From assembly GCA_029572955.1 (NCBI GenBank), contig JAKPQE010000080.1, positions 1 through 29,099 on the forward strand: a stretch of DNA of 29,099 nt, written 5' to 3'. The position numbers and the translations under genes were made by a program. This document shows positions 1 to 25,145 of the stretch, one piece after another. Numbering within the stretch: position 1 is the first letter of the stretch; each line of letters starts with the position of its first letter. Below the pieces are notes generated by a model. The model did no database searches, was not told where the DNA came from, and worked only from the letters and a program-made list of their open reading frames with translations. The DNA comes from Pseudomonadota bacterium (GTDB taxonomy: Bacteria; Pseudomonadota; Alphaproteobacteria; Rhizobiales; JAKPQE01).

Positions 1-5
1 AGACC

Positions 6-644
6 ATGACCGACGAGACCGGTACCGAGAAGACCGCGCCCGAGGAGACCGCCGCGGCGCCTGCCGCTGCCGAGGCTCCGGCCGCGACCGATCCGGCGGC
101 GGCGCTTGCCAGGGAGAACGGCGAGCTGAAGGACCGCGTCCTGCGCACCATGGCCGAGATGGAGAATCTGCGCCGGCGCACCGAGCGCGAGGTGCGCGAT
201 GCCGGCCAGTACGCGATCGCCTCGTTCGCCCGCGACCTTCTGGCGGTCGCCGACAATCTGCGCCGGGCGATCGATTCGGTCGGCGAGGAGGCGCGCGCCG
301 GTGCCGAGCCGACCCTCACCGCGCTTCTCGACGGCGTCGAGATGACCGAGCGCGAGCTCCTCAAGGTCTACGAGAAGCACGGCGTGACCAAGATCGAGCC
401 GGCGGGTCAGAAGTTCGATCCGAATTTCCATCAGGCGATGTACGAGATTCCCGACCCGACCGTGCCGGCCGGCACGGTGGCGCAGGTGATGGCCGCCGGC
501 TATGTCATCGGCGAGCGCGTGCTGCGCCCGGCGATGGTCGGCGTCGCCCGTGGCGGGCCGAAATTCGTCGCCGAGACGCCGGCCGAGCCGGAGCCGCGCC
601 CGGCGGCGAGCGAGCCGGGCAGCACCGTCGACCGGGAAGCCTGA
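6..644 (+). CDS. grpE: Nucleotide exchange factor GrpE (DnaK co-chaperone)
   Basis: 212-aa ORF with an Ala/Pro/Glu-rich N-terminus followed by the conserved GrpE core ([11 protein letters not shown]..., [15 protein letters not shown]..., [23 protein letters not shown]). The ATG at 6 is preceded by only 5 nt of window. Confidence 0.9.
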
Positions 645-689: not shown

Positions 690-930
690 GGCTGCGGGCC
701 ATGCCATCCCCTCTCTAACCGTTTCGGACCTCCCCCTCCCCTCCCTCCCCCGGCGGGGGAGGGCTTCATCCGGGCCTATGGGGAATGCTCTGCCTCCCCA
801 GGCGGGTGCTTTGCCCGGCCTTTTTGGGGGAATGCCCTGCCTGAAGGCAGGGCGTCATCCCTCGCCGTCGGGGGAGGGCAACCGCAGCTTCGATTTGTCG
901 TTGCACGACAAATCGTTAGCGTAGGTCGGG
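690..930. repeat. Compound GC-rich palindromic (REP-like) repeat cluster in the convergent grpE / SPFH-gene intergenic region
   Basis: Seen directly: a perfect 9-bp GC hairpin ccctccccc-ggc-gggggaggg (743-763); cgggggagggc twice (754-764, 869-879); direct repeat ggggaatgcYctgcct twice (780-795, 827-842); hairpin gccctgcc-tgaa-ggcagggc (834-853); and a perfect 11-bp inverted repeat cgatttgtcgt-tgc-acgacaaatcg (891-915). Confidence 0.5.
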
Positions 931-986: not shown

Positions 987-2798
987 TTACTGCATCGCCG
1001 GTGCGGGAGTCGCCGACGGGCGATTGCCGCCGAGGGCCTGGCCGAGGATCGCCGCCGCGCCGGCAAGACCCTCGCCACCGGGCCCGGCGCTCACCACCGT
1101 GTTCGGCACGAGCTTGCTGACGAGGCCGACGAGTTCGGGCCGGCGTTCGAGCGCCGAGAGCGTCTTTTCGAGCGCCTGCAGCAGGGCGACCCGGTCCTGG
1201 CCGAGGACTTGGGCCTGGGCCAGCTGGCCTTTTGCGAGCTCTTCGAGGAACTTGCGCTCGGCGCGGCCGAGGGCTTCGCGTTCCTTTTCGCGCTGGTTGG
1301 CGACCTGCACGGCGATCTGTGATTCGACGAGGCGCGGCTGTTCGTTGGCGGTCGAACGGGCCTGCTCGGTCTCGATGCGCTTCTGCTGGGCCGCCGTCTC
1401 GCGCTCATAGGCGATCGAGAGCTGGTCGGCGAGCTGGACGCGCAGACGCGACAAGAGCAGCTCCGGCGGGATCGCCGGTTCGCCAAGGCGGATCTCGCGG
1501 ATGTCGACGCCGGCCTTCGCCCCTTCCGTCTTGATCTTGCCCTCGATCGTCTCTTCGAGCGCCTCGCGGTTCTCGATGAGATCGAGCACCCGGGTCGGCC
1601 GGATCTCGTACTGGACCGGGTCGGAAACGGTGCCGTCCTCGTTCTTCAGCGGCAGGCGCACGGTCGAGCCGGCGACGTTGCGCACGATCGAGCGGATCGC
1701 CGGCGTGAGGATGCGGTCCTCGATCTCGTCGAGGCCGCCGACCGAGGCAATCACGATCGGCGCATGCTCCGGGCTGACCTGGACGAGGGCGCGCAGCTCG
1801 AGCGGGATATCCCAGCCTTCGACCTTGATGAACACGGCCTTGTCGGCGGCGTTTTCGGGCACCGGCTCGTCGACGCGGCGTTCGGTCTGCTGCAGGTTGC
1901 CCTGCTGGTCGAGGGCGAGATCGACGATCCGCTTGGTATAGCCGCCCTTGTATTCCCAGGTCCGGACGCGAACGTCGACGAAGGTGACCTCGTAGGCCGA
2001 GCGGTTGAGGTAATAGGCGCCGGGCAGCAGCGGCTCCTTCCAGATGCCGACGCAGCCGCGCGGCACCAGCGGCACCGAAAGTGCGCCACGGGTCGGCGTC
2101 GTCGAGACCTCTTCCTCGCGGCAGCTGACGCCGGGCGTCGCGACGTTCGACTTCACGACGCCGACGAAGCCCTTCGGGATGATCGTCGCCTCGGTGTCGG
2201 TATCGATCTTCACGTCGAAGAGATAGCGGTTGAGGCGATACTGGCCGGGCTTCAGGACGGTTTCCTGGGGACCGCGATAGCCGCTCTTCTGCAGGAAGCT
2301 CGACGCGTCGAGCATGTCGGCGACCTGATCGTCCGGGAAGGCCGGGGCGATGAACATGCCGGCCGGCATCGGCTGGCCGTCGAGCGCGGTGAGCTGGCCG
2401 TAATAGCCCTCGGGCACCGAGACGACGTCGTATTCCTCGTAGGAATAGAGCACCCGGACGAAGGGCAGGAAATGGAAACCGGGACCGAGGATCTGGGCCT
2501 GCGGGCCCTTTTCGCCGGCAAGCGCCACGATGCGGCCGGGCGGCAGCTCGGAGAAGGCATAGATGCGCTTCAGATGCCCGACCCCGTCGGCGGCGACATA
2601 GATGAAGGACGTCGCGGCGAGGAGATAAAGGCCGACGAGGGTCGCGACGGCGCCGATGCCGCGGCGGCCGAGGGCGTTGGTCAGCTTGCCGAAGCGGCCG
2701 ATCGGTGGCGGCCCGCCCGCCGGCTTTGCCGGACGCATCAACAGGAACACGCCGAAGGCAACGAGGACTATTCCGACGATGATGCCAAGCATTGCCAA
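987..2798 (-). CDS. Large SPFH/band-7 (flotillin/YqiK-like) membrane protein
   Basis: 603-aa ORF with two N-terminal hydrophobic helices. It has a flotillin-like entry segment (FIYVAADGVG...ILGPGFHFLPFV) and an SPFH-like core ending AIRSIVRNVAGSTV...GVDIREIRLGEPAIPPEL. The C-terminus is a coiled-coil Ala/Glu/Gln/Arg-rich tail typical of flotillin EA repeats. Family assignment rests on motif recall only. Confidence 0.5.
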   Translation of the reverse strand: MAMLGIIVGIVLVAFGVFLLMRPAKPAGGPPPIGRFGKLTNALGRRGIGAVATLVGLYLLAATSFIYVAADGVGHLKRIYAFSELPPGRIVALAGEKGPQAQILGPGFHFLPFVRVLYSYEEYDVVSVPEGYYGQLTALDGQPMPAGMFIAPAFPDDQVADMLDASSFLQKSGYRGPQETVLKPGQYRLNRYLFDVKIDTDTEATIIPKGFVGVVKSNVATPGVSCREEEVSTTPTRGALSVPLVPRGCVGIWKEPLLPGAYYLNRSAYEVTFVDVRVRTWEYKGGYTKRIVDLALDQQGNLQQTERRVDEPVPENAADKAVFIKVEGWDIPLELRALVQVSPEHAPIVIASVGGLDEIEDRILTPAIRSIVRNVAGSTVRLPLKNEDGTVSDPVQYEIRPTRVLDLIENREALEETIEGKIKTEGAKAGVDIREIRLGEPAIPPELLLSRLRVQLADQLSIAYERETAAQQKRIETEQARSTANEQPRLVESQIAVQVANQREKEREALGRAERKFLEELAKGQLAQAQVLGQDRVALLQALEKTLSALERRPELVGLVSKLVPNTVVSAGPGGEGLAGAAAILGQALGGNRPSATPAPAMQ

Positions 2799-2877
2799 CC
2801 CCCCTCGAGCGAATCACCGAAGAACAGGATAGTGGCATTGCGCGGTGTCGGTACGACGGTTAGTCGCAAAAATATCG

Positions 2878-3543
2878 TCAGGTCTTGCCGTCGCCGGGTG
2901 CGGTCACCCGTCTGAGGGTCAGGTTGACGCGACCGCCGTCGGCAAAGACATAGCCATAGGGCGCAAGCAGCGTCGAGCTGCCGGCCATCAGGCGGTCGAT
3001 GCCGTGATAATAGAGCCGCGACGGTCCGCCGAGGACGAGCACGTCGCCGGAGGCGAGCGGGAAGGAGCGGGTCGGGCCGCCGCGCTCCGGACCGCCGATG
3101 CGGAAGCGGGCGGTGTCGCCGAGGGAAATCGAGACGATCGGAGCCGAAAAGTCGGCTTCGTCCTCGTCGCGATGGAGCCCCATTTTCGCGTCGGGGCCGT
3201 AATAGTTGACGAGGCAGGCTTCCGGCTCGTGCGGATAGCCGGCGAATTCCCGCCAGAGGGCGAGGACCGAGCCCGGCATCGGCGGCCATGGCCTGTTCGT
3301 TTCGGGGTGACGTTCGCCATAGCGGTAGCCGTTGCGGTCCGACAGCCAGCCGAGCTTGCCGCAATTGGTCATCCGCACGCTGAAGGGTCGACCGCTTCTC
3401 GGCATCACCGGCCGGTAGAGCGGGGCCTCGCGGATGACGCCAACGATATCGGCGAGAAGCGATTCGGCGCCGTTCCGATCGAGCGCGCCGGGATAGAGCC
3501 GAAGGCCGGGTATGTCGGTGCCGGCCTGCCGCCGCTCAGTCAC
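2878..3543 (-). CDS. alkB: Alpha-ketoglutarate/Fe(II)-dependent dioxygenase AlkB (alkylated DNA repair)
   Basis: 221 aa with AlkB motifs: MTNCGKLGW, NRPWPPMP, ACLVNYY.PDAKMGLHRDEDE, APIVSISLG, LYYHGI, RVNLTLRRV. GTG start at 3541-3543, overlapping the dnaQ stop by a few nt. Confidence 0.85.
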   Translation of the reverse strand: MTERRQAGTDIPGLRLYPGALDRNGAESLLADIVGVIREAPLYRPVMPRSGRPFSVRMTNCGKLGWLSDRNGYRYGERHPETNRPWPPMPGSVLALWREFAGYPHEPEACLVNYYGPDAKMGLHRDEDEADFSAPIVSISLGDTARFRIGGPERGGPTRSFPLASGDVLVLGGPSRLYYHGIDRLMAGSSTLLAPYGYVFADGGRVNLTLRRVTAPGDGKT

Positions 3544-4231
3544 CGAGGTATTTCCGCCAGATCGCCTTCTCGCCCATCTCTGCGATGAAGGCGATATGGG
3601 CCTCTCGCTCCGCCTCGGTCAGGCGCGGGCCTAGCGGGCGCGGGCGCGGCGGGATATCGCGGGCGCTGATCGCGCCGGCGTGGCCGCCAACCTCTTCCGC
3701 ATCGAGGGTCAGGAACGCCTGGCGGCCGCCGATCAGCTCCAGATAGACCTCGGCGAGGAGTTCGGCGTCGAGCAGCGCACCGTGCTTGGTGCGGCGCGAA
3801 TTGTCGATGCCGTAGCGCTGGCAGAGGGCGTCGAGGCTGTTGGAGCCGACCGGATGCTTCTTGCGGGCGAGCATCAGCGTGTCGACGACGAGTTCGGCCG
3901 GCAGCGCCGGGCGCCCGACATTGCCGAGCTCGAAGTTGAGAAAGCCCATGTCGAAGCTGGCGTTGTGGGCGATCAGCCGGGCGCCGTCGACGAAGGCGAG
4001 GAATTCTTCCACGACATCGCCGAACACCGGCTTGTCGGCGAGGAACTGTTCCGAGAGGCCATGAACGTTGTAGGCTTCGACCGGCATCGAGCGCATCGGA
4101 TTGATGTAGCGGTGGAAGACCTGGCCGGTCGGGATGTGATTGATCAGCTCGACGGCACCGATCTCGACCACGCGATCGCCGGTGCGGTGATCGAGGCCTG
4201 TCGTTTCGGTATCGAGGGTGATTTCCCGCAA
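3536..4231 (-). CDS. dnaQ: DNA polymerase III epsilon subunit (3'-5' proofreading exonuclease)
   Basis: Exo motifs REITLDTETTGLD (ExoI), GARLIAHNASFDMGFL (ExoII) and TKHGALLDAELLAEVY (ExoIII). There is no in-frame ATG, so a TTG start at 4229-4231 giving M-REITLDTETTGL is proposed. The longer 596-aa ORF in the track is an artefactual upstream extension. Confidence 0.8.
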   Translation of the reverse strand: MREITLDTETTGLDHRTGDRVVEIGAVELINHIPTGQVFHRYINPMRSMPVEAYNVHGLSEQFLADKPVFGDVVEEFLAFVDGARLIAHNASFDMGFLNFELGNVGRPALPAELVVDTLMLARKKHPVGSNSLDALCQRYGIDNSRRTKHGALLDAELLAEVYLELIGGRQAFLTLDAEEVGGHAGAISARDIPPRPRPLGPRLTEAEREAHIAFIAEMGEKAIWRKYLGD

Positions 4232-4281: not shown

Positions 4282-4905
4282 TCAGCGACCGGAGCCGTGC
4301 AAGGCCCGCCGCGCGGCTTTTCCCCGCATTCCGGCGACGGCCCTGAGGATGCCGGCGACGGCGGCGCGGGCGTTGTCGAAGCCGTGACCGGTATCGACGA
4401 GGAAATGGGCGGCGCGGCGTTTCTCGGCGTCCGGCATCTGGCGGGCGAGCATCGCCTCGAACAGCTCCTCGGTCACCCCCGGACGGGCCATGACCCGGGC
4501 GCGCTGGACAGCGGCGCCGGCGGTGACGACGACGACGGCATCGACCCGCGCGGCGCCTCCCGTCTCCAGCAGCAGCGGGATATCGAGAACGACGATGCGG
4601 TTCGATTCGGCTGCGGACCGAAGGAACTTCTGTTCCTCCTCGCGCACCAGCGGATGGACGATCGCCTCGAGCCGGGCGATCGCCTGGCGGTCGCCGGCGA
4701 CGATCGCCCCGAGCTTCTTGCGCTCGACGCCGTCCGGTCCGGTGGTTCCGGGAAAGGCCGCCTCGATCGATGGCACGGCCGTTCCGCGATAGAGCATGTG
4801 CACCGTGCGGTCGGCGTCGTGCACCGGGACGCCGGCCTCGGCGAACATCTTCGCCGTCGTCGACTTGCCCATGCCGATCGATCCGGTGAGGCCGAGGACG
4901 AGCAT
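4282..4905 (-). CDS. coaE: Dephospho-CoA kinase
   Basis: Starts [16 protein letters not shown] (P-loop) and carries CoaE-like ...VHDADRTVH... and IVVLDIPLL. The ATG at 4903-4905 overlaps the aroE stop by 1 nt (TGATG). Confidence 0.85.
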
Positions 4906-5741
4906 CAGGAACTCCCGATATGGGCAAGAACGACGGCGCGGAGCTCGTCGGTGACCTCCGGACGGAGCCCGAACCAGCGCTCGAAGCCCGGCACGGCCTG
5001 ATGCAGCAGCATACCGAGGCCGTCGACCACCGGGTTGCCACGCTGCCGTGCCGCCCGCAAAAGCCCGGTCTCGAGCGGCACATAGACGATGTCGGTGACG
5101 AGCGCATCGGCCGGGAGGCGGGAAAGGTCGATATCGACGTCGGGCTCGCCGGCCATGCCGAGCGAGGTGGTGTTGACGAGAAGGCGAGCATCTTCGAGAG
5201 CGGCCGATCGATTCTCCCACGAAACGGCTTCGATCGTCGGCCCGAAACGAGCCTTGAAATCGTCGACGCGGGTGAGCGTCCGGTTGGCGATGCGGATCGG
5301 GGCCAGGCCGCGCGCGGCAAGGGCATGGACGATGGCGCGGGCCGCGCCGCCGGCGCCGAGAACGACGGCCGGGCCTTTCACGTCGTCCCAGCCGGGCTGG
5401 CCGGCATCGAGATTGGCGAGGAATCCGTAGCCATCGGTGTTCGAGGCGCAGAGCCTGCCGTCCTCGAGCCAGAGCGTGTTGGCGGCGCCGAGGCGGGTGG
5501 CGATCTCGTCGGCGCGATCGGCGGCGGCGAAGGCGCCTTCCTTGTGCGGCACGGTGACATTGCCACCGACGAAGCCGTTCGCCGCGAGGCTGGCCAGGAA
5601 GCCGGCGAGGGCCGCGGGCTCGACCGGCACGGCCTCGTAGCTGCCGGCAAGACCATAGGTCTTCAGCCAGTGACCGTGGATGACCGGCGAGCGGGAATGC
5701 CTGATCGGCCAGCCGATGACGAAGGCGCGCGGTGCGGTCAT
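4905..5741 (-). CDS. aroE: Shikimate 5-dehydrogenase
   Basis: 278 aa with [25 protein letters not shown]...NTDG.GF and a GAGGAARA Rossmann motif. Its start overlaps the maf stop (ATGA). Confidence 0.85.
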
Positions 5742-6340
5742 GTCTCGAGGATCCCCCGATCACGCAGGAAGCCGAGCAGGGGCAGCAGCGGCAGGCCGAG
5801 GATGGTGAAATAGTCGCCTTCGATCGTCTCGAAGAGCTGGATGCCCGGCCCCTCGAGGCGATAGGCGCCGACGCTGGTCAGCGCTTCGCTGCCGACAAGG
5901 GCGAGATAGTGGCCGGCGAATTCGGGGGTGAAATCGCGCATGGTGAGATCGGCGCGCGAGATGTGGCGCCACAGCGTCTCGCCGTCCTTCACACAGGCGA
6001 TCGCCGAATGGAGCGAGTGCGTCGCGCCGCGCATGGCAAGGAGCTGGCGGCGGGCATCCTCGATCGTTTCGGGCTTGTTGAAGCGCTTCTCGCCGAGACC
6101 GAGGGTCTGGTCGGAGCCGATGACGAGCGCGCCCGGACGACGTTCGCTGACCTCCCTTGCCTTCGCCTCGGCCAGCACTTCGGCGATGTCGTCGGGGCCG
6201 AAATCCGCTTCGACGAGCGGCGCCTCGACGGCGCGTTCGTCGATATCGGCGGGGACGATGTCGAAATCGAGCCCGGCGTTCTGCAGCAGCATGATCCGCG
6301 ACTGGCTTTTCGAGGCAAGGATCAGGCGGGTATCGGTCAT
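5738..6340 (-). CDS. maf: Maf-like nucleoside triphosphate pyrophosphatase (septum formation protein Maf)
   Basis: 200 aa with [12 protein letters not shown], ...VIGSDQ..., ...KP.....A...L... and [11 protein letters not shown], the typical Maf/YhdE signature. Confidence 0.85.
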
Positions 6341-6361: not shown

Positions 6362-7210
6362 TCAGTCGCCGGCGGCTTCGAGCTGGGCCTTGCGGTGCGA
6401 CTGATAGAGCGCGGCGATCGCGGCGGCGGTTTCCTCGATCGAACGGCGGGTGACGTCGATGATCGGCCAGTTCTGGCGGCCGCAGGTCTTGCGCGTGAAG
6501 GCGATCTCCTCGGAGATCGAGGTGCGGTCGACATAGGCCGTGTTGCCGTCGCTGGCATTGAGGGCGAGAAGCCGGTTCTGGCGGATATGGGCAACGCGCT
6601 CGGGGCTGGCGATGAGACCGACGATCAGCGGCTTCTTGGCTTCGAACAGCCGTTCCGGCAGCGGGATGCCGAGAACGATCGGGATGTTCATGGTCTTGAT
6701 GCCGCGATTGGCGAGATAGATCGAGGTCGGAGTCTTCGAGGTACGGCTGATGCCGACGATGACGATGTCGGCCTCGTCGACATCGTCCGGGAACTGGCCG
6801 TCGTCGTGCATCATGGTGAAGTTCAGCGCGTCGATGCGATTGAAATAGTCGGCATCGAGGACGTGCTGGGCGCCGACGCGGCTCGTCGTCGGCTCGCCGA
6901 GGAAGGAGCGGAAGGCGGCGAGCACCGGGCCAATGATCGAGAGGCAGGGAAGGCCGATGCCGCGGCAGGCGGTCTCGATGCGCTCGCAGAGCTCCGGGTC
7001 GACGAGCGTGTAGAGGACGATGCCCGGGCGGCGACTGATCTCCTCGATGACGCGGTCCATCTGCTTGACGTTGCGCACCGCCGGATGAACGTGCTTGACG
7101 AGATCGACCGAGCCGTAATGCGCGGTGGCGGCGCGGGCGACGGTCATCAGCGTTTCGCCGGTCGCGTCGGAAATGAGATGGAGATGAAAGTGGTTGGCTT
7201 CGGTTTCCAC
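6362..7210 (-). CDS. DUF299 kinase/pyrophosphorylase (putative pyruvate,phosphate dikinase / PEP synthetase regulatory protein PpsR-like)
   Basis: Motifs [19 protein letters not shown] and [20 protein letters not shown] (P-loop-like) match the PDRP/PpsR family. A GTG start at 7208-7210 gives about 283 aa, with AAGGA about 13 nt upstream. This is the position of Caulobacter CC0001/RP001, the gene bordering Cori. Confidence 0.7.
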
Positions 7211-7629
7211 CGGATTATCCCCATCCTTGTCGAAAACACGGGAGAAAGGGCGCCTCGTGGCGGCTCCCGAGCGATCTATCCCCGAAACGGGGTTTTCATC
7301 AACAGGCGATGCGGGACGGGACAGCCGGCGATCGGTTCGGTGGAACTTCGGGAATCGACGAGGTCGTCGACTTTCCATCGGCGAAATGTCCACAGGATGA
7401 GACGCCCGGATCGAGCGCCGATTTTCACTCAATCTATTGTTTTCGCTATGAAATCCGGTCTATCTCATGGACGGATACGGATATGTGCAGAACTCTCGGT
7501 GATCGCGACGCGACCGAAGGTCCGCCGTGGCATCGTTGTGGAGAAAGCGAAATGAGTCTAATCCACGGTCAAAAGAAATAATCAAAAATCAAAATCAGGA
7601 TTCTTGGATTTTAGAATTGGAGTGGACGA
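7211..7629. other. Candidate chromosomal replication origin (oriC/Cori-like) in the DUF299-hemE divergent intergenic region
   Basis: DnaA-box-like 9-mers: ttatcccca (7215-7223, 1 mismatch to TTATCCACA), atgtccaca (7386-7394), tgtggagaa (7537-7545, 1 mismatch to TGTGGATAA) and taatccacg (7559-7567). A sharply AT-rich tract lies at 7569-7618 (aaaagaaataatcaaaaatcaaaatcaggattcttggattttagaatt) immediately upstream of the hemE start. The gene context matches the hemE/RP001 origin region of Caulobacter and other alphaproteobacteria. Confidence 0.5.
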
Positions 7630-8685
7630 GTGAGCGAAGGACAGAACGCGACCGCCGACCGAAAGCTCGTTCGGGTGCTCGATGGTGAGAGCGTCTTTCC
7701 GCCTCCGATCTGGCTGATGCGCCAGGCAGGACGGTACCTGCCGGAATACCGGGCGACGCGCGCCGAAGCCGGGAGCTTTCTCGATCTTTGCTACAATCCG
7801 GAACTCGCCACGGAAGTGACGCTCCAGCCGATCCGCCGGTTCGGCTTCGATGCGGCCATTCTCTTTTCCGATATCCTCGTCATCCCGGATGCGCTCGGCC
7901 GCAAGGTGCGGTTCAGCGAGGGACACGGACCGCAGCTCGATCCGATCACGACGGACGAGGAGATCGACAGGTTGCGGGTCGACGGGGCGGTGGAGCGCCT
8001 CGCGCCGGTCATCGAGACGGTGGGACGGATTCGGGCCGCGCTGCCCGAGGAGGTGACGCTGCTCGGTTTCTGTGGCGCGCCGTGGACGGTCGCGACCTAC
8101 ATGATCGCCGGCGAGGGAACCCCCGACCAGGCGCCGGCGCGGCTGTTCGCCTATCGCAACGAGGCGGCATTCGCGAAGCTGATGGAAAAGCTCGTTGCCT
8201 CGTCGGTCGATTATCTCGTGGCGCAGCTTGAGGCCGGTGCCGATGCCGTGCAGGTGTTCGATACCTGGGCCGGGGTGCTCGACGAGGTGTCGTTCCGCAA
8301 GTGGGTGATCGAGCCGACGCGGGCGATCGTCGATGGGGTGCGCGCCAAAGTGCCGGGCGCCCGGATCATCGGTTTTCCGCGCGGCTCGGGGCTGCTCTAT
8401 ACGGATTTCGTCGCCGAGACCGGGGTCAATGCGGTCGGTATGGACTGGACGGTGCCGCGGGAATTCGCGCGCGACCGGCTGCAGCCGAATGTTGCTGTCC
8501 AGGGCAATATCGATCCGTTGCTGATGATCGAGGGCGGCGCGGCGCTCGACGCCTCGGTCGACGATCTCGTCGAAAAGCTCGGGCGTGGCCGGCTTATCGC
8601 CAATCTCGGCCACGGCATTACGCCGCAGGGGCGCATCGAGAATGTCGAGCGCTTCATCCGGCGGGTTCGCGACGCCAGGCTCTGA
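7630..8685 (+). CDS. hemE: Uroporphyrinogen decarboxylase
   Basis: 351 aa with [16 protein letters not shown] and [14 protein letters not shown]; overall HemE-like throughout. GTG start at 7630 preceded by ggagtgg. Confidence 0.9.
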
Positions 8686-9330: not shown

Positions 9331-10596
9331 ATGCGAGAAATGAAACTCCAGGACCTCAAGATCAAGACGCCGACCGAGCTGCTCGCCTTTGCCGAGGAAC
9401 TCGAGGTCGAGAACGCGAGCACGATGCGCAAGCAGGAGCTCATGTTCGCGATCCTGAAGCGGCTGGCGGCACAGGATACGGAAATCATCGGTGAGGGCGT
9501 CGTCGAAGTGCTGCAGGACGGTTTCGGCTTCCTGCGCTCGCCCGACGCCAACTATCTGCCGGGTCCCGACGACATCTACGTGTCGCCGTCGCAGATTCGC
9601 CGCTTCTCGCTGCGCACCGGCGACACCGTCGAGGGCCAGATCCGCAGCCCGAAGGAAGGCGAGCGGTATTTCGCGCTGCTCAAGGTGAACACGATCAATT
9701 TCGAGGATCCGGAGAAGACGCGGCACAAGATCCATTTCGACAATCTGACGCCGCTCTATCCGGACGAGCGCTTCCGGATGGAAGTCGAGGATCCGACGAC
9801 CAAGGATCTTTCCTCGCGCGTCATCGATCTCGTGGCGCCGCTCGGCAAGGGCCAGCGCGCGCTGATCGTGGCGCCGCCGCGCACCGGCAAGACGGTGCTG
9901 CTGCAGAACATCGCCCATTCGATCACGGCCAATCATCCCGAGTGCTATCTGATCGTGCTGCTGATCGACGAGCGGCCGGAAGAAGTCACCGACATGCAGC
10001 GCTCGGTGAAGGGCGAGGTGATTTCCTCGACCTTCGACGAGCCGGCGGCGCGCCACGTCCAGGTTGCCGAAATGGTGATCGAGAAGGCCAAGCGCCTCGT
10101 CGAGCATGGTCGCGACGTCGTGATCCTGCTCGATTCGATCACCCGCCTCGGCCGCGCCTACAACACGGTGGTGCCGTCCTCGGGCAAGGTGCTGACCGGT
10201 GGCGTCGACGCCAACGCCCTGCAGCGGCCGAAGCGCTTCTTCGGCGCGGCGCGCAACATCGAGGAAGGCGGCTCGCTGACCATCATCGCGACGGCGCTGA
10301 TCGATACCGGCAGCCGCATGGACGAGGTGATCTTCGAAGAGTTCAAGGGCACCGGCAACTCGGAAATCATCCTCGACCGCAAGGTCTCCGACAAGCGCGT
10401 CTTCCCGTCGATGGACATCCAGCGCTCGGGCACCCGCAAGGAAGAGCTGCTGGTGCCGAACGATCAGCTGAAGAAGATGTATGTCCTCAGGCGCATCCTG
10501 ACGCCGATGGGCACGGTCGACGCCATCGAGTTCCTGCTCGACAAGCTGAAGCAGACGAAGAGCAACATCGACTTCTTCGATTCGATGAACACCTGA
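9331..10596 (+). CDS. rho: Transcription termination factor Rho
   Basis: N-terminus [43 protein letters not shown], Walker [13 protein letters not shown], and the Q/R-loop region. The ATG at 9331 is chosen over the track's upstream in-frame ATG at 9265, which would add 22 non-conserved residues. Confidence 0.9.
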
Positions 10597-14095: not shown

Positions 14096-14109
14096 GGGAT
14101 TCTGGAATC

Positions 14110-14125
14110 CGTTTCACGTGAAACG
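14110..14125. other. parS centromere site (ParB binding) in the mnmE-mnmG intergenic region
   Basis: cGTTTCACGTGAAACg carries a perfect 14-bp palindrome and matches 14 of 16 positions of the consensus tGTTTCACGTGAAACa. The 17-mer ccgtttcacgtgaaacg is repeated at 16173-16189. Confidence 0.7.
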
Positions 14126-14188
14126 CACCCGAGTCGCACAGCTTCTCCACATATGGTGCCGTGCCCGAGGCGACATGGAAGGACAGAG

Positions 14189-16120: not shown

Positions 16121-16779
16121 ATGGCTGCATCGCCGTTGGTCGATTCGATTGATATCGTTTCCGAAATCGTTCCCGTTTCACGTGAAACGGCAGAGCGGCT
16201 CGGCATCTATGTCGAACTCCTGAAGCACTGGCAGACGCGGATCAATCTCGTCGCGCCGTCGACGCTCGACGCCATCTGGCGCCGGCATGTGGCGGACAGC
16301 GTACAGATCCTGCCGCTCGTTCCGGATGCGAGGCGATGGCTCGACATCGGCAGCGGCGCCGGCTTTCCGGGCATGGTGACGGCGATCTTCCTCGCCGATG
16401 TCGCCGGGGCGCGGGTCGATCTCGTCGAGTCGAACGGCAAGAAGGCGGCGTTCCTGCGAACCGTCGCCCGCGAGACGGGAGCTGCGGCGAATATCCATTG
16501 CGCGCGCATCGAGGATGTGATTCCTAGCCTCACGGAGCCCGTCGACGCGGTCAGCGCACGGGCGCTCGCGAGCCTCGACATTCTCTGTCGGATGGTCGAG
16601 CCGTTGGTCCGCAAAGGTGCCGTCGCGGTTTTCCACAAAGGTCAAGATTTTGAGGCCGAGTATCGCGAATGCGCTAAATCTTGGGTCATCGATCTGGTAA
16701 AACACCAAAGTCGGATCGATCCCAAGGGGTCGATCATCCTCATTCGCGGCATCGAGCCGCTGGCGACAGGGATCCCCAC

Positions 16780-16783: not shown

Positions 16784-17604
<821 letters not shown>

Positions 17605-17696
17605 CCGGTCGACATAAACGGGCCTAAAACGGCACAATTACCGATATCGATTCACAACCGAAACAACATAGGCGAGTCGTTTCAGGAATGGCGAAC

Positions 17697-18560
<864 letters not shown>

Positions 18561-24297: not shown

Positions 24298-24461
24298 CGG
24301 GGTTTTCCGAAAATTCACCGACCTGCGGCCACGGTATCGGAGCGGGCCGAACCGCGAAAGGCAGGGATGGTCAAGAGCCGAACGGACGATACATAATGCG
24401 CCGCGCGGCCTGGGCGGAATCTGCCGTGTGCCTGCAACCGACAAACCCCGAGGGAAGACAG

Positions 24462-25145
24462 ATGACGGCAAGGCGTATCCTGCTCGTCGACGACGACACC
24501 GAACTTCGCGAGGCGCTGGTCGAACAGCTCGCGCTCTACGACGAATTCGAGACGGTCGATCTCGATACCGCGACGAAGGCCGTGCAATTCACCAAGGCCG
24601 ACCATGCCGATCTCATCGTCATGGATGTCGGGCTGCCCGACATGGACGGCCGCGAGGCGGTGAAGCTCATCCGCAAGAACGGCTTCAAGGCTCCGATCAT
24701 CATGCTGACCGGGCACGCCACGGATTCCGACACGATTCTCGGCCTCGAGGCCGGTGCCAACGACTATGTGACGAAGCCATTCCGCTTCGCGGTGCTGCTC
24801 GCGCGCGTCCGCGCCCAGCTGCGCCAGCACGAGCAGAGCGAGGATGCCGTCTTCACCATCGGCCCCTACAGCTTCCGCCCGAGTGCCAAGGTTCTCCTCG
24901 ACGAGAAAGGCAGCAAGGTCCGTCTTACCGAGAAAGAGACGGCGATCCTCAAGTTTCTCTATCGGGCCGGCGAAAAGGTCATCGGACGTGATGTCCTGTT
25001 GCATGAAGTCTGGGGCTACAATTCCGGCGTGACTACGCATACGCTGGAGACGCACATCTATCGCCTGCGTCAGAAAATCGAGCGCGATCCGTCGAATGCG
25101 GAGTTGCTCGTGACCGAGTCGGGCGGTTACAAGCTCGTGCCCTGA
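24462..25145 (+). CDS. OmpR-family two-component response regulator (receiver plus winged-helix)
   Basis: Receiver ILLVDDD...DLIVMDVGLPDMDG...KPF and C-terminal winged helix (LTEKETAILKFL..., THTLETHIYRLRQKIE, GGYKL). No histidine kinase gene is adjacent. ATG at 24462 with GAGGGA Shine-Dalgarno. Confidence 0.8.
   Translation: MTARRILLVDDDTELREALVEQLALYDEFETVDLDTATKAVQFTKADHADLIVMDVGLPDMDGREAVKLIRKNGFKAPIIMLTGHATDSDTILGLEAGANDYVTKPFRFAVLLARVRAQLRQHEQSEDAVFTIGPYSFRPSAKVLLDEKGSKVRLTEKETAILKFLYRAGEKVIGRDVLLHEVWGYNSGVTTHTLETHIYRLRQKIERDPSNAELLVTESGGYKLVP

What the first reader, a model, noticed from the sequence alone, without database searches (positions are those of the whole stretch)
7211..7629. 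Probable chromosomal replication origin (oriC) between the DUF299 gene and hemE
The flanking gene order is (DUF299/RP001-like)-maf-aroE-coaE-dnaQ on one side and hemE on the other. This is the gene neighbourhood reported for the Caulobacter crescentus origin Cori, which lies in the hemE/RP001 intergenic region, and it is conserved at origins of other alphaproteobacteria rather than the dnaA-dnaN neighbourhood. rho, mnmE-mnmG-rsmG-parAB and two parS sites follow within 9 kb. In the sequence I see four DnaA-box-like 9-mers: 7215-7223 ttatcccca, 7386-7394 atgtccaca, 7537-7545 tgtggagaa and 7559-7567 taatccacg. There is also a 50-bp tract at 7569-7618 that is very AT-rich for this genome (A-tracts and aatcaaa repeats), a plausible DNA-unwinding element, sitting directly on the hemE promoter region. 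The hemE GTG start would be nearly leaderless if tagaat (7612-7617) is the -10 element. I found no CtrA-type TTAA-N7-TTAA motifs and only 3 GANTC sites, which is not enriched.
Basis: partly seen in the sequence, partly recalled or inferred. Interest (0 to 1): 0.75.

Follow-up and report, generated by a model that had tools for sequence, protein, structure and literature searches.

The report
Likely chromosome replication origin beside hemE
This 419-base gap between two diverging genes has the sequence hallmarks of the chromosome's replication start site, as known from related bacteria, but the DNA strand bias that should flip at such a site does not flip here.

Summary
The intergenic region 7211-7629 lies between the DUF299/PpsR-family gene and hemE. 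It holds 7 DnaA-box-like 9-mers, against 0.8 expected by chance, and this is the only such cluster in the window. It also holds the least stable 50-bp duplex of all 29 kb, at 7569-7618.

The gene order dnaQ-coaE-aroE-maf-DUF299 | hemE-hemJ-rho is kept in about 68 of 80 Hyphomicrobiales loci. The boxes keep their order, orientation and spacing across these relatives, including an inverted pair 22 nt apart about 74 nt before hemE. On this evidence the region is the orthologue of the hemE-linked alphaproteobacterial oriC (Caulobacter Cori type). That makes it a new member of a known kind.

One test fails. At four-fold degenerate sites the + strand is G-rich on both sides of the region. The seven minus-strand genes to the left look like lagging-strand genes (p = 6e-5 against the right-flank plus-strand genes). 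The same anomaly extends 19-30 kb to the left in the closest high-GC relatives, whereas most relatives do flip at this spot.

I give active oriC about 0.62. The main rival is a retained DnaA-box module with initiation elsewhere, at about 0.25. The whole replicon is needed to decide.

The parts
6362..7210 (-). DUF299 / PpsR-family kinase-pyrophosphorylase gene (the RP001/COG1806 homologue) with a GTG start at 7210. It is the left boundary gene and is transcribed away from the region.
   Evidence: Pfam PF03618, E = 7.9e-88. NCBIfam NF003742 scores 335 bits against a cutoff of 225. The same gene call appears in L001.
7211..7629 (.). 419-bp intergenic region, the candidate oriC. Its GC content is 0.53 against 0.67 for the window.
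7215..7223 (+). DnaA-box-like site TTATCCCCA (1 mismatch).
   Evidence: The TCCCC core is invariant in alignment A1 of 5 lineages.
7228..7236 (-). DnaA-box-like site TTTTCGACA (2 mismatches), followed by a conserved CGGGA.
   Evidence: The site is identical in L173. Relatives carry TGTGGACAA or TGTTGATAA at this position.
7296..7304 (+).
   Evidence: ATCAACAG is invariant in A1. Rhizobiaceae carry TCCACA boxes at this position.
7386..7394 (+). Central DnaA-box-like site ATGTCCACA(GG).
   Evidence: TCCACAG is found at the matching position in L015, L019, L083, L086, L024 and L014. L173 has TCAACAGGAT there.
7484..7492 (-). Weak box-like site TTCTGCACA (2 mismatches).
   Evidence: A reverse box-like site lies at a similar position in L173. 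This is the weakest of the seven.
7537..7545 (-). DnaA-box-like site TTCTCCACA (1 mismatch), the left member of an inverted pair.
   Evidence: TTGTGG is conserved in A1 and A2.
7559..7567 (+). DnaA-box-like site TAATCCACG, the right member of the inverted pair. It starts 22 nt after the left member, sits next to the AT-rich tract, and lies 71 nt (box start at 7559) before the hemE start at 7630; one search lists this distance as 74 because its slices ran 3 nt into hemE.
   Evidence: The 22-nt spacing is found in the window, L015, L019, L067, L016, L063, L173, L014 and L039. A TAATCC box lies 60-74 nt before hemE in most loci.
7569..7618 (.). AT-rich tract (78% A+T) with AATCAAAA repeats, the candidate DNA-unwinding element.
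   Evidence: It is the least stable 50-mer of the window, at z of about +5. The repeat TAATCCACGGTCAAAA / TAATCAAAAATCAAAA was reported. AAGAAATA is shared with the Rhizobiaceae origins.
7352..7356 (.). GANTC (CcrM-type methylation motif), GAATC.
7554..7558 (.). GANTC (GAGTC) directly before the TAATCCACG box.
   Evidence: GACTC or GAGTC sites are conserved beside the AT-rich tract in most relatives.
7599..7603 (.). GANTC (GATTC) inside the AT-rich tract.
7620..7623 (+). GGAG Shine-Dalgarno-like motif 6 nt before the hemE GTG start.
   Evidence: Read directly from the sequence.
7630..8685 (+). hemE (uroporphyrinogen decarboxylase), the right boundary gene, transcribed away from the region.
   Evidence: Pfam PF01208, E = 1.2e-111. 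The same 351-aa gene call appears in L001.
14110..14125 (.). parS site CGTTTCACGTGAAACG, 6.5 kb from the region.
   Evidence: 2 matches against 0.02 expected.
16174..16189 (.). Second parS site, inside rsmG.
16801..18560 (+). parA-parB partition genes, part of the origin-proximal segregation module.
   Evidence: Pfam hits.

Best explanation
The region 7211-7629 is the orthologue of the hemE-linked chromosomal origin of Alphaproteobacteria (Caulobacter Cori type; the Rhizobiaceae origins sit at the same locus), in an uncultured Hyphomicrobiales bacterium.

The proposed mechanism is inferred from known origins and is not shown here. DnaA occupies a row of six or seven weak boxes. These run from the DUF299 start to an inverted pair (TGTGGAGAA, then 13 nt, then TAATCCACG). 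The DnaA oligomer then opens the adjacent 50-bp AT-rich tract just upstream of hemE, where the helicase is loaded. The parS sites and parAB, 6-11 kb away, segregate the new origins. GANTC sites flanking the last box would report methylation state. No CtrA boxes are present, so direct CtrA repression of the origin is not expected.

What the data show is the set of sequence elements, their enrichment, and their conservation in position across relatives. DnaA binding, unwinding and origin firing are inferred.
For: 1. Synteny. The order dnaQ-coaE-aroE-maf-DUF299 | hemE-hemJ-rho-mnmE is found in about 68 of 80 Hyphomicrobiales loci, with the same divergent arrangement and intergenic lengths of mostly 363-520 bp. 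Caulobacter Cori was mapped beside hemE and overlapping duf299 (PMC6393856). hemE/COG1806 are the accepted boundary genes for this origin type (PMC1914354).

2. Box enrichment. There are 7 boxes against 0.83 expected, with 0 of 2000 shuffles reaching 7. The density is about 30 times that of the rest of the window. This is the only cluster in the window, and none appears in the 30 kb to the left of hemE in relatives. The count is above the relatives' median of 6 and equals that of Ensifer (7); Agrobacterium has 8 and Brucella 9.

3. Duplex stability. The tract next to the last box is the least stable 50-mer of the window.

4. Conservation. In alignments that are otherwise only 59-70% identical, the conserved islands fall on the boxes: TCCCC, ATCAACAG, TTGTGG and AATCCAC. 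The 22-nt pair spacing and the distance to hemE are also kept.

5. GANTC enrichment matches the relatives.

6. Two parS sites and parAB lie within 11 kb.

7. Gene orientation diverges at the region. In the window 7 of 8 genes to the left are on the minus strand, as are 16 of 19 in L169 and 14 of 20 in L170.

8. No RNA family, tRNA or credible ORF accounts for the region.
Against: Strand composition does not switch here. Coding-strand GC skew at four-fold sites is +0.05 for right-flank plus-strand genes (n = 11), -0.38 for right-flank minus-strand genes (n = 8), and -0.35 for left-flank minus-strand genes (n = 7). The left-flank genes are indistinguishable from the right-flank minus-strand genes (Mann-Whitney p = 0.87) and different from the right-flank plus-strand genes (p = 6e-5). 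The + strand therefore looks like the leading strand on both sides.

The same pattern holds to -19 kb in the L015 organism (L169) and to about -30 kb in Prosthecomicrobium sp. N25 (L170). It is weaker in the nearest relative L173. Most relatives, 41 of 55 by my count from the table, do show opposite polarity on the two sides, so the method can detect a switch at this locus.

Other points against: no box is a perfect TTATCCACA; there is no IHF consensus in the region; no regular DnaA-trio array is visible by eye. There is no functional data of any kind, and the replicon is incomplete.
Confidence: 0.62

Rival explanations
1. The region is a retained ancestral origin module that no longer fires, or is not the main initiation site. 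Initiation has moved at least 7 kb to the left in this organism, and more than 30 kb in its closest high-GC relatives. The DnaA-box/AT-rich module persists because DnaA still acts there, either as a regulator of the divergent hemE and DUF299 promoters or as a DnaA-titrating or DnaA-reactivating locus comparable to E. coli datA or DARS.
For: Strand polarity at four-fold sites is uniform across the region in the window, in L015/L169, L019 and L074, and more weakly in L173. Polarity flips at this locus in most other Hyphomicrobiales. The anomaly is shared by lineages only about 60-65% identical in protein sequence, so it is old and at equilibrium. L015 and L074 have only 3 and 2 boxes. The window's left flank has been rearranged: band7-grpE was joined to alkB-dnaQ only in the window and L173.
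Against: No alternative DnaA-box cluster or AT-rich element was found in the window or in the 30 kb to the left of hemE in relatives. No dnaA gene was found in any locus held. The window's module is as rich in boxes as origins of Ensifer, Agrobacterium and Brucella, and its architecture is under clear constraint. If the + strand were leading on the left, three quarters of the genes there would be head-on to replication. GC skew is known to be an imperfect origin predictor in Alphaproteobacteria (PMC1914354; PMC3794950).
Confidence: 0.25
2. The region is an active origin whose forks leave it asymmetrically. Replication would be unidirectional or strongly right-biased, or a second nearby initiation zone would exist, so that the left flank is usually copied by a rightward-moving fork.
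For: It would reconcile an intact, conserved origin module with the uniform + polarity. Polarity on the left is weaker than on the right: r_left is about +0.1 against r_right of about +0.26 in L015, L023 and L026. A mixture of fork directions would produce this.
Against: I know of no precedent for this in bacterial chromosomes. There is no fork-barrier element or candidate protein in the window. The weaker left polarity rests on few plus-strand genes.
Confidence: 0.06
3. The region is an ordinary divergent promoter region. AT-rich composition would produce DnaA-box look-alikes by chance.
For: No box is perfect. The region must hold the promoters of both hemE and the DUF299 operon.
Against: Shuffles that preserve the region's own composition give 0.83 sites against 7 observed, and none of 2000 reached 7. 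The sites are conserved in position, orientation and spacing across families. No sigma-70-like promoter was found by the consensus scan.
Confidence: 0.03

Closest known systems
Caulobacter crescentus Cori (the hemE / duf299 = CCNA_00001 origin)
   Same: It has the same boundary genes in the same divergent arrangement and the same downstream order (hemE, rho, mnmE, gidAB, parAB with parS). Both have several weak, imperfect DnaA boxes, an AT-rich region on the hemE side, GANTC sites, and hemE transcription leaving the origin (PMC6393856).
   Different: Cori has five CtrA sites (TTAA-N7-TTAA) and an IHF site. This region has no TTAA at all and no IHF consensus. No small RNA comparable to CcnA was detected. 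dnaA is not within 7 kb on the DUF299 side. From my own knowledge, not tested here, Caulobacter dnaA lies about 8 kb from Cori. The skew switch expected at Cori is absent here.
Rhizobiaceae / Brucellaceae hemE-linked oriC (Sinorhizobium meliloti oriC, Agrobacterium and Brucella chromosome I)
   Same: This is the closest sequence-level match. The intergenic length is about 385-430 bp and the boxes are in the same order. The conserved right-hand module is a reverse box, then a TAATCC box, then an AT-rich tract containing AAGAAATA and GANTC, ending 60-74 nt before hemE. CtrA boxes are usually absent.
   Different: Those lineages often carry perfect TTATCCACA boxes (27 of 68 loci) and show opposite strand polarity on the two sides. 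The window has neither. That the S. meliloti origin was tested experimentally is my recollection (Sibley et al. 2006); the paper was not available to read here.
Rickettsiales ori regions (Rickettsia hemE/COG1806; Wolbachia hemE/COG1253)
   Same: The prediction logic and the criteria of Ioannidis et al. 2007 apply: boundary genes, a 200-1000 bp intergenic region, binding-site enrichment, high A+T, conservation of the sites, and a skew shift (PMC1914354).
   Different: Those origins usually carry CtrA and IHF sites. In several of them the skew shift agrees with the predicted origin, though it is spread over about 20 kb.
E. coli datA / DARS DnaA-box clusters (model for the rival explanation)
   Same: These are clusters of DnaA boxes outside the firing origin that are kept by selection for control of DnaA.
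   Different: They have no adjacent unwinding element and are not orthologous to any origin. Nothing here was tested for titration or reactivation of DnaA.

Membership tests
Alphaproteobacterial hemE-linked oriC (Cori type; criteria of Brassinga 2001/2002 and Ioannidis 2007) | It lies between hemE and the COG1806/DUF299 (RP001) gene, which are transcribed divergently. | tested here: met
   Pfam and NCBIfam. The same arrangement is found in about 68 of 80 related loci.
Alphaproteobacterial hemE-linked oriC (Cori type; criteria of Brassinga 2001/2002 and Ioannidis 2007) | The intergenic region is 200-1000 bp long. | tested here: met
   It is 419 bp.
Alphaproteobacterial hemE-linked oriC (Cori type; criteria of Brassinga 2001/2002 and Ioannidis 2007) | DnaA boxes are present and are denser than in other regions. 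| tested here: met
   There are 7 against 0.83 expected, with 0 of 2000 shuffles reaching 7. It is the only cluster in the window.
Alphaproteobacterial hemE-linked oriC (Cori type; criteria of Brassinga 2001/2002 and Ioannidis 2007) | A+T is raised relative to the genome, with an unwinding-prone tract. | tested here: met
   GC is 0.53 against 0.67. The tract 7569-7618 is the least stable 50-mer of the window.
Alphaproteobacterial hemE-linked oriC (Cori type; criteria of Brassinga 2001/2002 and Ioannidis 2007) | Binding sites are more conserved than the surrounding sequence in related genomes. | tested here: met
   The invariant islands in A1 and A2 fall on the boxes, and the 22-nt spacing is kept. 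No formal site-versus-non-site statistic was computed.
Alphaproteobacterial hemE-linked oriC (Cori type; criteria of Brassinga 2001/2002 and Ioannidis 2007) | GC skew, that is leading/lagging strand composition, shifts at the region. | tested here: not met
   Skew is positive on both sides. Four-fold-site polarity is the same on both sides. Only 7.2 kb is available on the left. The criterion is described in the source as not universal, and the shift as possibly spread over about 20 kb.
Alphaproteobacterial hemE-linked oriC (Cori type; criteria of Brassinga 2001/2002 and Ioannidis 2007) | CtrA binding sites (TTAA-N7-TTAA) are present. | tested here: not met
   None is present, and there is no TTAA in the region. 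Only 10 of 67 Hyphomicrobiales relatives have one, so the feature does not define the origin in this order.
Alphaproteobacterial hemE-linked oriC (Cori type; criteria of Brassinga 2001/2002 and Ioannidis 2007) | An IHF site (WATCAN5WTR) is present. | tested here: not met
   No match falls in 7211-7629.
Alphaproteobacterial hemE-linked oriC (Cori type; criteria of Brassinga 2001/2002 and Ioannidis 2007) | It supports DnaA-dependent initiation (autonomous replication, DnaA binding, marker-frequency peak). | not testable with these tools
   This needs experiments or read-depth data.
dnaA-dnaN-linked oriC (the arrangement in most bacteria) | The origin is adjacent to dnaA and/or dnaN. | tested here: not met
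The Pfam scans of window ORFs returned no dnaA or dnaN family, but dnaN was not searched for specifically and not every ORF was scanned.
Basal unwinding system with DnaA-trios (Richardson et al. 2016) | An array of at least 3 trinucleotide repeats (3'-[G/A]AT-5') lies next to a DnaA box. | tested here: inconclusive
   The sequence after the TAATCCACG box was inspected by eye, and no regular 3-nt array was seen. The trio orientation rules were recalled from memory and no formal scan was run.

The most novel reading that the evidence does not exclude
In this lineage, and independently in Ancalomicrobiaceae-like and Cohaesibacter relatives with strong strand bias, the deeply conserved hemE-linked DnaA-box/unwinding module is not where the leading and lagging strands switch. 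Either origin firing has moved tens of kb away while the ancestral module is kept for another DnaA-dependent role, or forks leave this origin asymmetrically.
Probability: 0.25. Interest if true: 0.65.

Novelty: new member of a known kind. Interest (0 to 1): 0.3.

Why it matters
If this is simply the oriC, it anchors the chromosome map of an uncultured wastewater/digester Hyphomicrobiales bacterium. It also adds one more case to a well-known rule, that alphaproteobacterial origins sit beside hemE. This particular case has no CtrA boxes. That is useful for annotation, for growth-rate estimates from read depth, and for vector design, but it is not surprising.

The only surprising element is that strand composition does not flip at the module, here and in a few related lineages. 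If that held up on complete genomes, it would give a natural test of how far a conserved origin sequence and the actual site of fork divergence can be uncoupled.

Tried and rejected
1. Extending the window to the left to find the skew switch failed. Exact-protein look-ups for hemE, hemJ and band7, and a metagenome scan with grpE, returned only contigs that end within about 30-230 bp upstream of grpE.

2. Walking left in the L015 organism worked once, through LpoA. The next step failed: a MutS fragment query did not return the exact protein.

3. The last protein search, with Band7, found the nearest relative, L173, which has the same arrangement. Longer contigs of 75-77% relatives have band7-grpE elsewhere in the genome, so they gave no further left flank.

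4. FtsK-orienting GGGNAGGG polarity was uninformative, with only 6 sites.

5. An RNA element was ruled out: there were no Rfam hits at gathering threshold or at E-value up to 1. The hairpin at 7280-7292 followed by TTTTCATC is not conserved in relatives, and its T-run overlaps a DnaA box.

6. The ORF 7309-7581 (90 aa) has no Pfam or NCBIfam match and was rejected as a gene.

7. The response regulator at 24396-25145 is not CtrA; it scores 109 bits against a cutoff of 350.

8. All-site GC skew alone was rejected as a test. Divergent genes produce a step at the region through coding-strand bias, so four-fold sites split by gene strand were used instead.

9. Expression-driven codon bias was considered as an explanation of the polarity and rejected. 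Weakly expressed plus-strand genes (rsmG, yggS and LysE here) sit near 0, whereas leuS, rph and ftsK on the minus strand sit at -0.3 to -0.5.

10. Brassinga 2001 (PMC95075) is not held in the library.

Full report
**What the window is.** It is a 67% GC segment from an uncultured alphaproteobacterium. The same sequence occurs in JGI digester/sludge metagenomes and in NCBI MAG GCA_035425065.1, on contigs of at most 10 kb. The nearest genomes belong to Hyphomicrobiales, with hemE at most 66% identical. The closest relative found is the MAG 'Hyphomicrobiales bacterium KDJ16', locus L173, whose Band7 protein is 80% identical and which has the same gene order.

**Genes.**
- Left of the region: grpE 6-644(+), a Band7/SPFH protein 987-2792(-), alkB 2878-3543(-), dnaQ 3536-4231(-), coaE 4282-4905(-), aroE 4905-5741(-), maf 5738-6340(-), and the DUF299/PpsR-family regulator 6362-7210(-).
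- The intergenic region: 7211-7629.
- Right of the region: hemE 7630-8685(+), hemJ, rho, a DUF255 thioredoxin-domain gene (-), mnmE, mnmG, rsmG, parA and parB (+), holA, lptE and leuS (-), yggS (+), ykuD (-), a response regulator (+), a cNMP-binding protein (+), xthA, lolA and ftsK (-).

**Checking the observation.**
- The DnaA-box signal is stronger than reported. Seven 9-mers lie within two mismatches of TTATCCACA, against 0.83 expected from shuffles that preserve the region's own dinucleotide content. None of 2000 shuffles reached 7. The density is 16.7 per kb against 0.56 per kb elsewhere.
- No other 400-bp stretch of the window has more than two such sites.
- The tract 7569-7618 is the least stable 50-bp duplex in the 29 kb, about 5 sd from the mean.
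- The two parS sites are real.
- The region contains no TTAA and the window has no CtrA-type site. No IHF consensus falls in the region.
- GANTC is three times denser in the region than in the flanks, the same ratio as in relatives. 'Not enriched' is therefore not quite right, although three sites alone are not significant.
- GGAG lies 6 nt before the hemE GTG, which argues against a leaderless hemE.

**Comparative evidence.** A scan of one genome per species with the hemE protein returned 80 Hyphomicrobiales loci.
- About 68 of them keep dnaQ-coaE-aroE-maf-DUF299 | hemE-hemJ-rho(-mnmE), with a divergent intergenic region of mostly 363-520 bp.
- The box-like sites of the window have counterparts in the same order and orientation in these regions.
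- In an alignment with the four most similar high-GC loci, which is only 59% identical overall, the invariant islands are TCCCC (box 1), ATCAACAG (box 3), TTGTGG (box 6) and AATCCAC (box 7).
- The nearest relative L173 keeps six of the seven sites, including an identical TGTCGAAAAC.
- The inverted pair TGTGGA...TAATCCAC has a start-to-start spacing of exactly 22 nt in nine loci from several families. The TAATCC box sits 60-74 nt before the hemE start in most loci, followed by an AT-rich tract with GANTC sites.
- The window's seven boxes compare with a median of six among relatives, and with 7, 8 and 9 in Ensifer, Agrobacterium and Brucella.
- CtrA boxes occur in only 10 of 67 relatives, so their absence is normal for this order.

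**Link to known origins.** Caulobacter Cori was mapped next to hemE and overlapping duf299. It has seven weak or moderate DnaA boxes, an AT-rich region, GANTC sites, five CtrA sites and an IHF site (PMC6393856). hemE/COG1806 boundary genes plus enriched sites, high A+T, conserved sites and a skew shift are the published criteria for this origin type. The same source warns that skew is not a universal predictor and that the shift can be spread over about 20 kb (PMC1914354). The window meets every sequence criterion except CtrA, IHF and the skew shift.

**The problem: strand composition.**
- GC skew is positive on both sides of the region.
- Divergent genes can fake a step in all-site skew, so I measured GC skew at four-fold degenerate sites on the coding strand, gene by gene. 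Right-flank plus-strand genes average +0.05 (n = 11). Right-flank minus-strand genes average -0.38 (n = 8). The seven left-flank minus-strand genes average -0.35.
- If forks diverged at the region, the left minus-strand genes would be leading-strand genes and should resemble the right plus-strand genes. Instead they are indistinguishable from the right minus-strand genes (p = 0.87) and distinct from the right plus-strand genes (p = 6e-5).
- The + strand therefore looks like the leading strand across the window from about 1 kb to 29 kb.
- The same holds in the closest high-GC relatives L015, L019 (Prosthecomicrobium) and L074 (Bauldia).
- Extending the L015 organism's contig shows the pattern to 19 kb left of hemE. 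A Prosthecomicrobium sp. N25 locus shows it at about 10-30 kb to the left.
- It is weaker but in the same direction in L173.
- By my count from the table, 41 of 55 relatives with enough genes show opposite polarity on the two sides, so the test does detect a switch at this locus when one exists. The exceptions are the lineages with the strongest strand bias: L015, L023/L026 Cohaesibacter and L007.

**What softens the conflict.**
- Only 7.2 kb lies to the left in the window, and every assembly of this organism breaks just upstream of grpE.
- The outer part of the left flank is a lineage-specific junction. band7-grpE sits beside ihfB-sppA-rpsA in relatives at 75-77% identity and is joined to alkB-dnaQ only in the window and L173.
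- No rival DnaA-box or AT-rich cluster exists in the window or in the 30 kb left of hemE in relatives, and no dnaA gene is in any held locus.
- Gene orientation diverges at the region. In the window 7 of 8 genes on the left are on the minus strand, as are 16 of 19 in L169 and 14 of 20 in L170. That is what an origin here predicts, and it would mean mostly head-on genes if the + strand were leading there.

**Verdict.** The sequence evidence makes this the orthologue of the hemE-linked oriC, and it is most likely still the origin (about 0.62). The mechanism is inferred. DnaA would load on a row of weak boxes ending in an inverted pair, and would open the adjacent 50-bp AT-rich tract at the hemE promoter. 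parS and ParAB nearby would handle segregation. There would be no direct CtrA control.

The main rival (about 0.25) is that the module is retained but initiation occurs elsewhere to the left. A small probability goes to asymmetric fork departure (0.06) and to a chance promoter region (0.03).

As an origin it is a new member of a well-known kind and of modest interest. The missing strand switch is unexplained and is the one thing worth following up on complete genomes.

Noticed in passing
window 700-900: The convergent grpE/band7 intergenic region is G+C-rich and carries inverted repeats and four GGGGAGGG motifs (734 and 743 on the minus strand, 756 and 871 on the plus strand). It looks like a REP-type element or a bidirectional terminator.
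   Followed up: no
window 1-70; L001, L089, L090: Every assembly of this organism ends within about 30-230 bp upstream of grpE, and L090 diverges from the window at about position 68. This suggests a repeat or strain-variable junction just left of the window.
   Followed up: partly
window 2800-3543; L173, L171, L172, L174, L175: alkB overlaps dnaQ by 8 nt and is appended to the dnaQ operon. band7-grpE is joined to this operon only in the window and L173. In relatives at 75-77% identity band7-grpE lies beside ihfB-sppA-rpsA-cmk-aroA. A lineage-specific rearrangement therefore lies 4-7 kb from the candidate origin.
   Followed up: partly
L015 about 9880-9900 and L019 about 6720-6740 (intergenic regions): The Ancalomicrobiaceae-like relatives carry a parS-like TGTTTCACGTGAGTCA inside their hemE intergenic region, just left of the TGTGG box. 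The window has no counterpart.
   Followed up: no
L007, L016, L023, L026, L015, L074 (left flanks): In the relatives with the strongest strand bias, the 10 kb left of hemE has the same four-fold-site polarity as the right flank. This pattern is not specific to the window.
   Followed up: partly
window 7309-7581; L169 18718-19038: A 90-aa ORF in the window and a called 106-aa gene in L169 lie inside the origin-like region and have no family match. They are probably spurious gene calls.
   Followed up: yes
whole window: GANTC occurs 71 times against about 198 in shuffles. The shuffle count may be doubled for this self-complementary pattern, which would make the expectation about 99. Either way the motif is depleted in coding sequence and relatively enriched in intergenic regions.
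   Followed up: no
L010: The record JAHREI010000001.1 is labelled Bacillus subtilis SK6B4, but it carries a Rhizobiales hemE locus with the same gene layout and intergenic coordinates as L009. It is a mislabelled or contaminated assembly.
   Followed up: no
window 14098-14135: Three GANTC sites (14098, 14105, 14131) flank the first parS site (14110-14125) in the mnmE-mnmG intergenic region.
   Followed up: no
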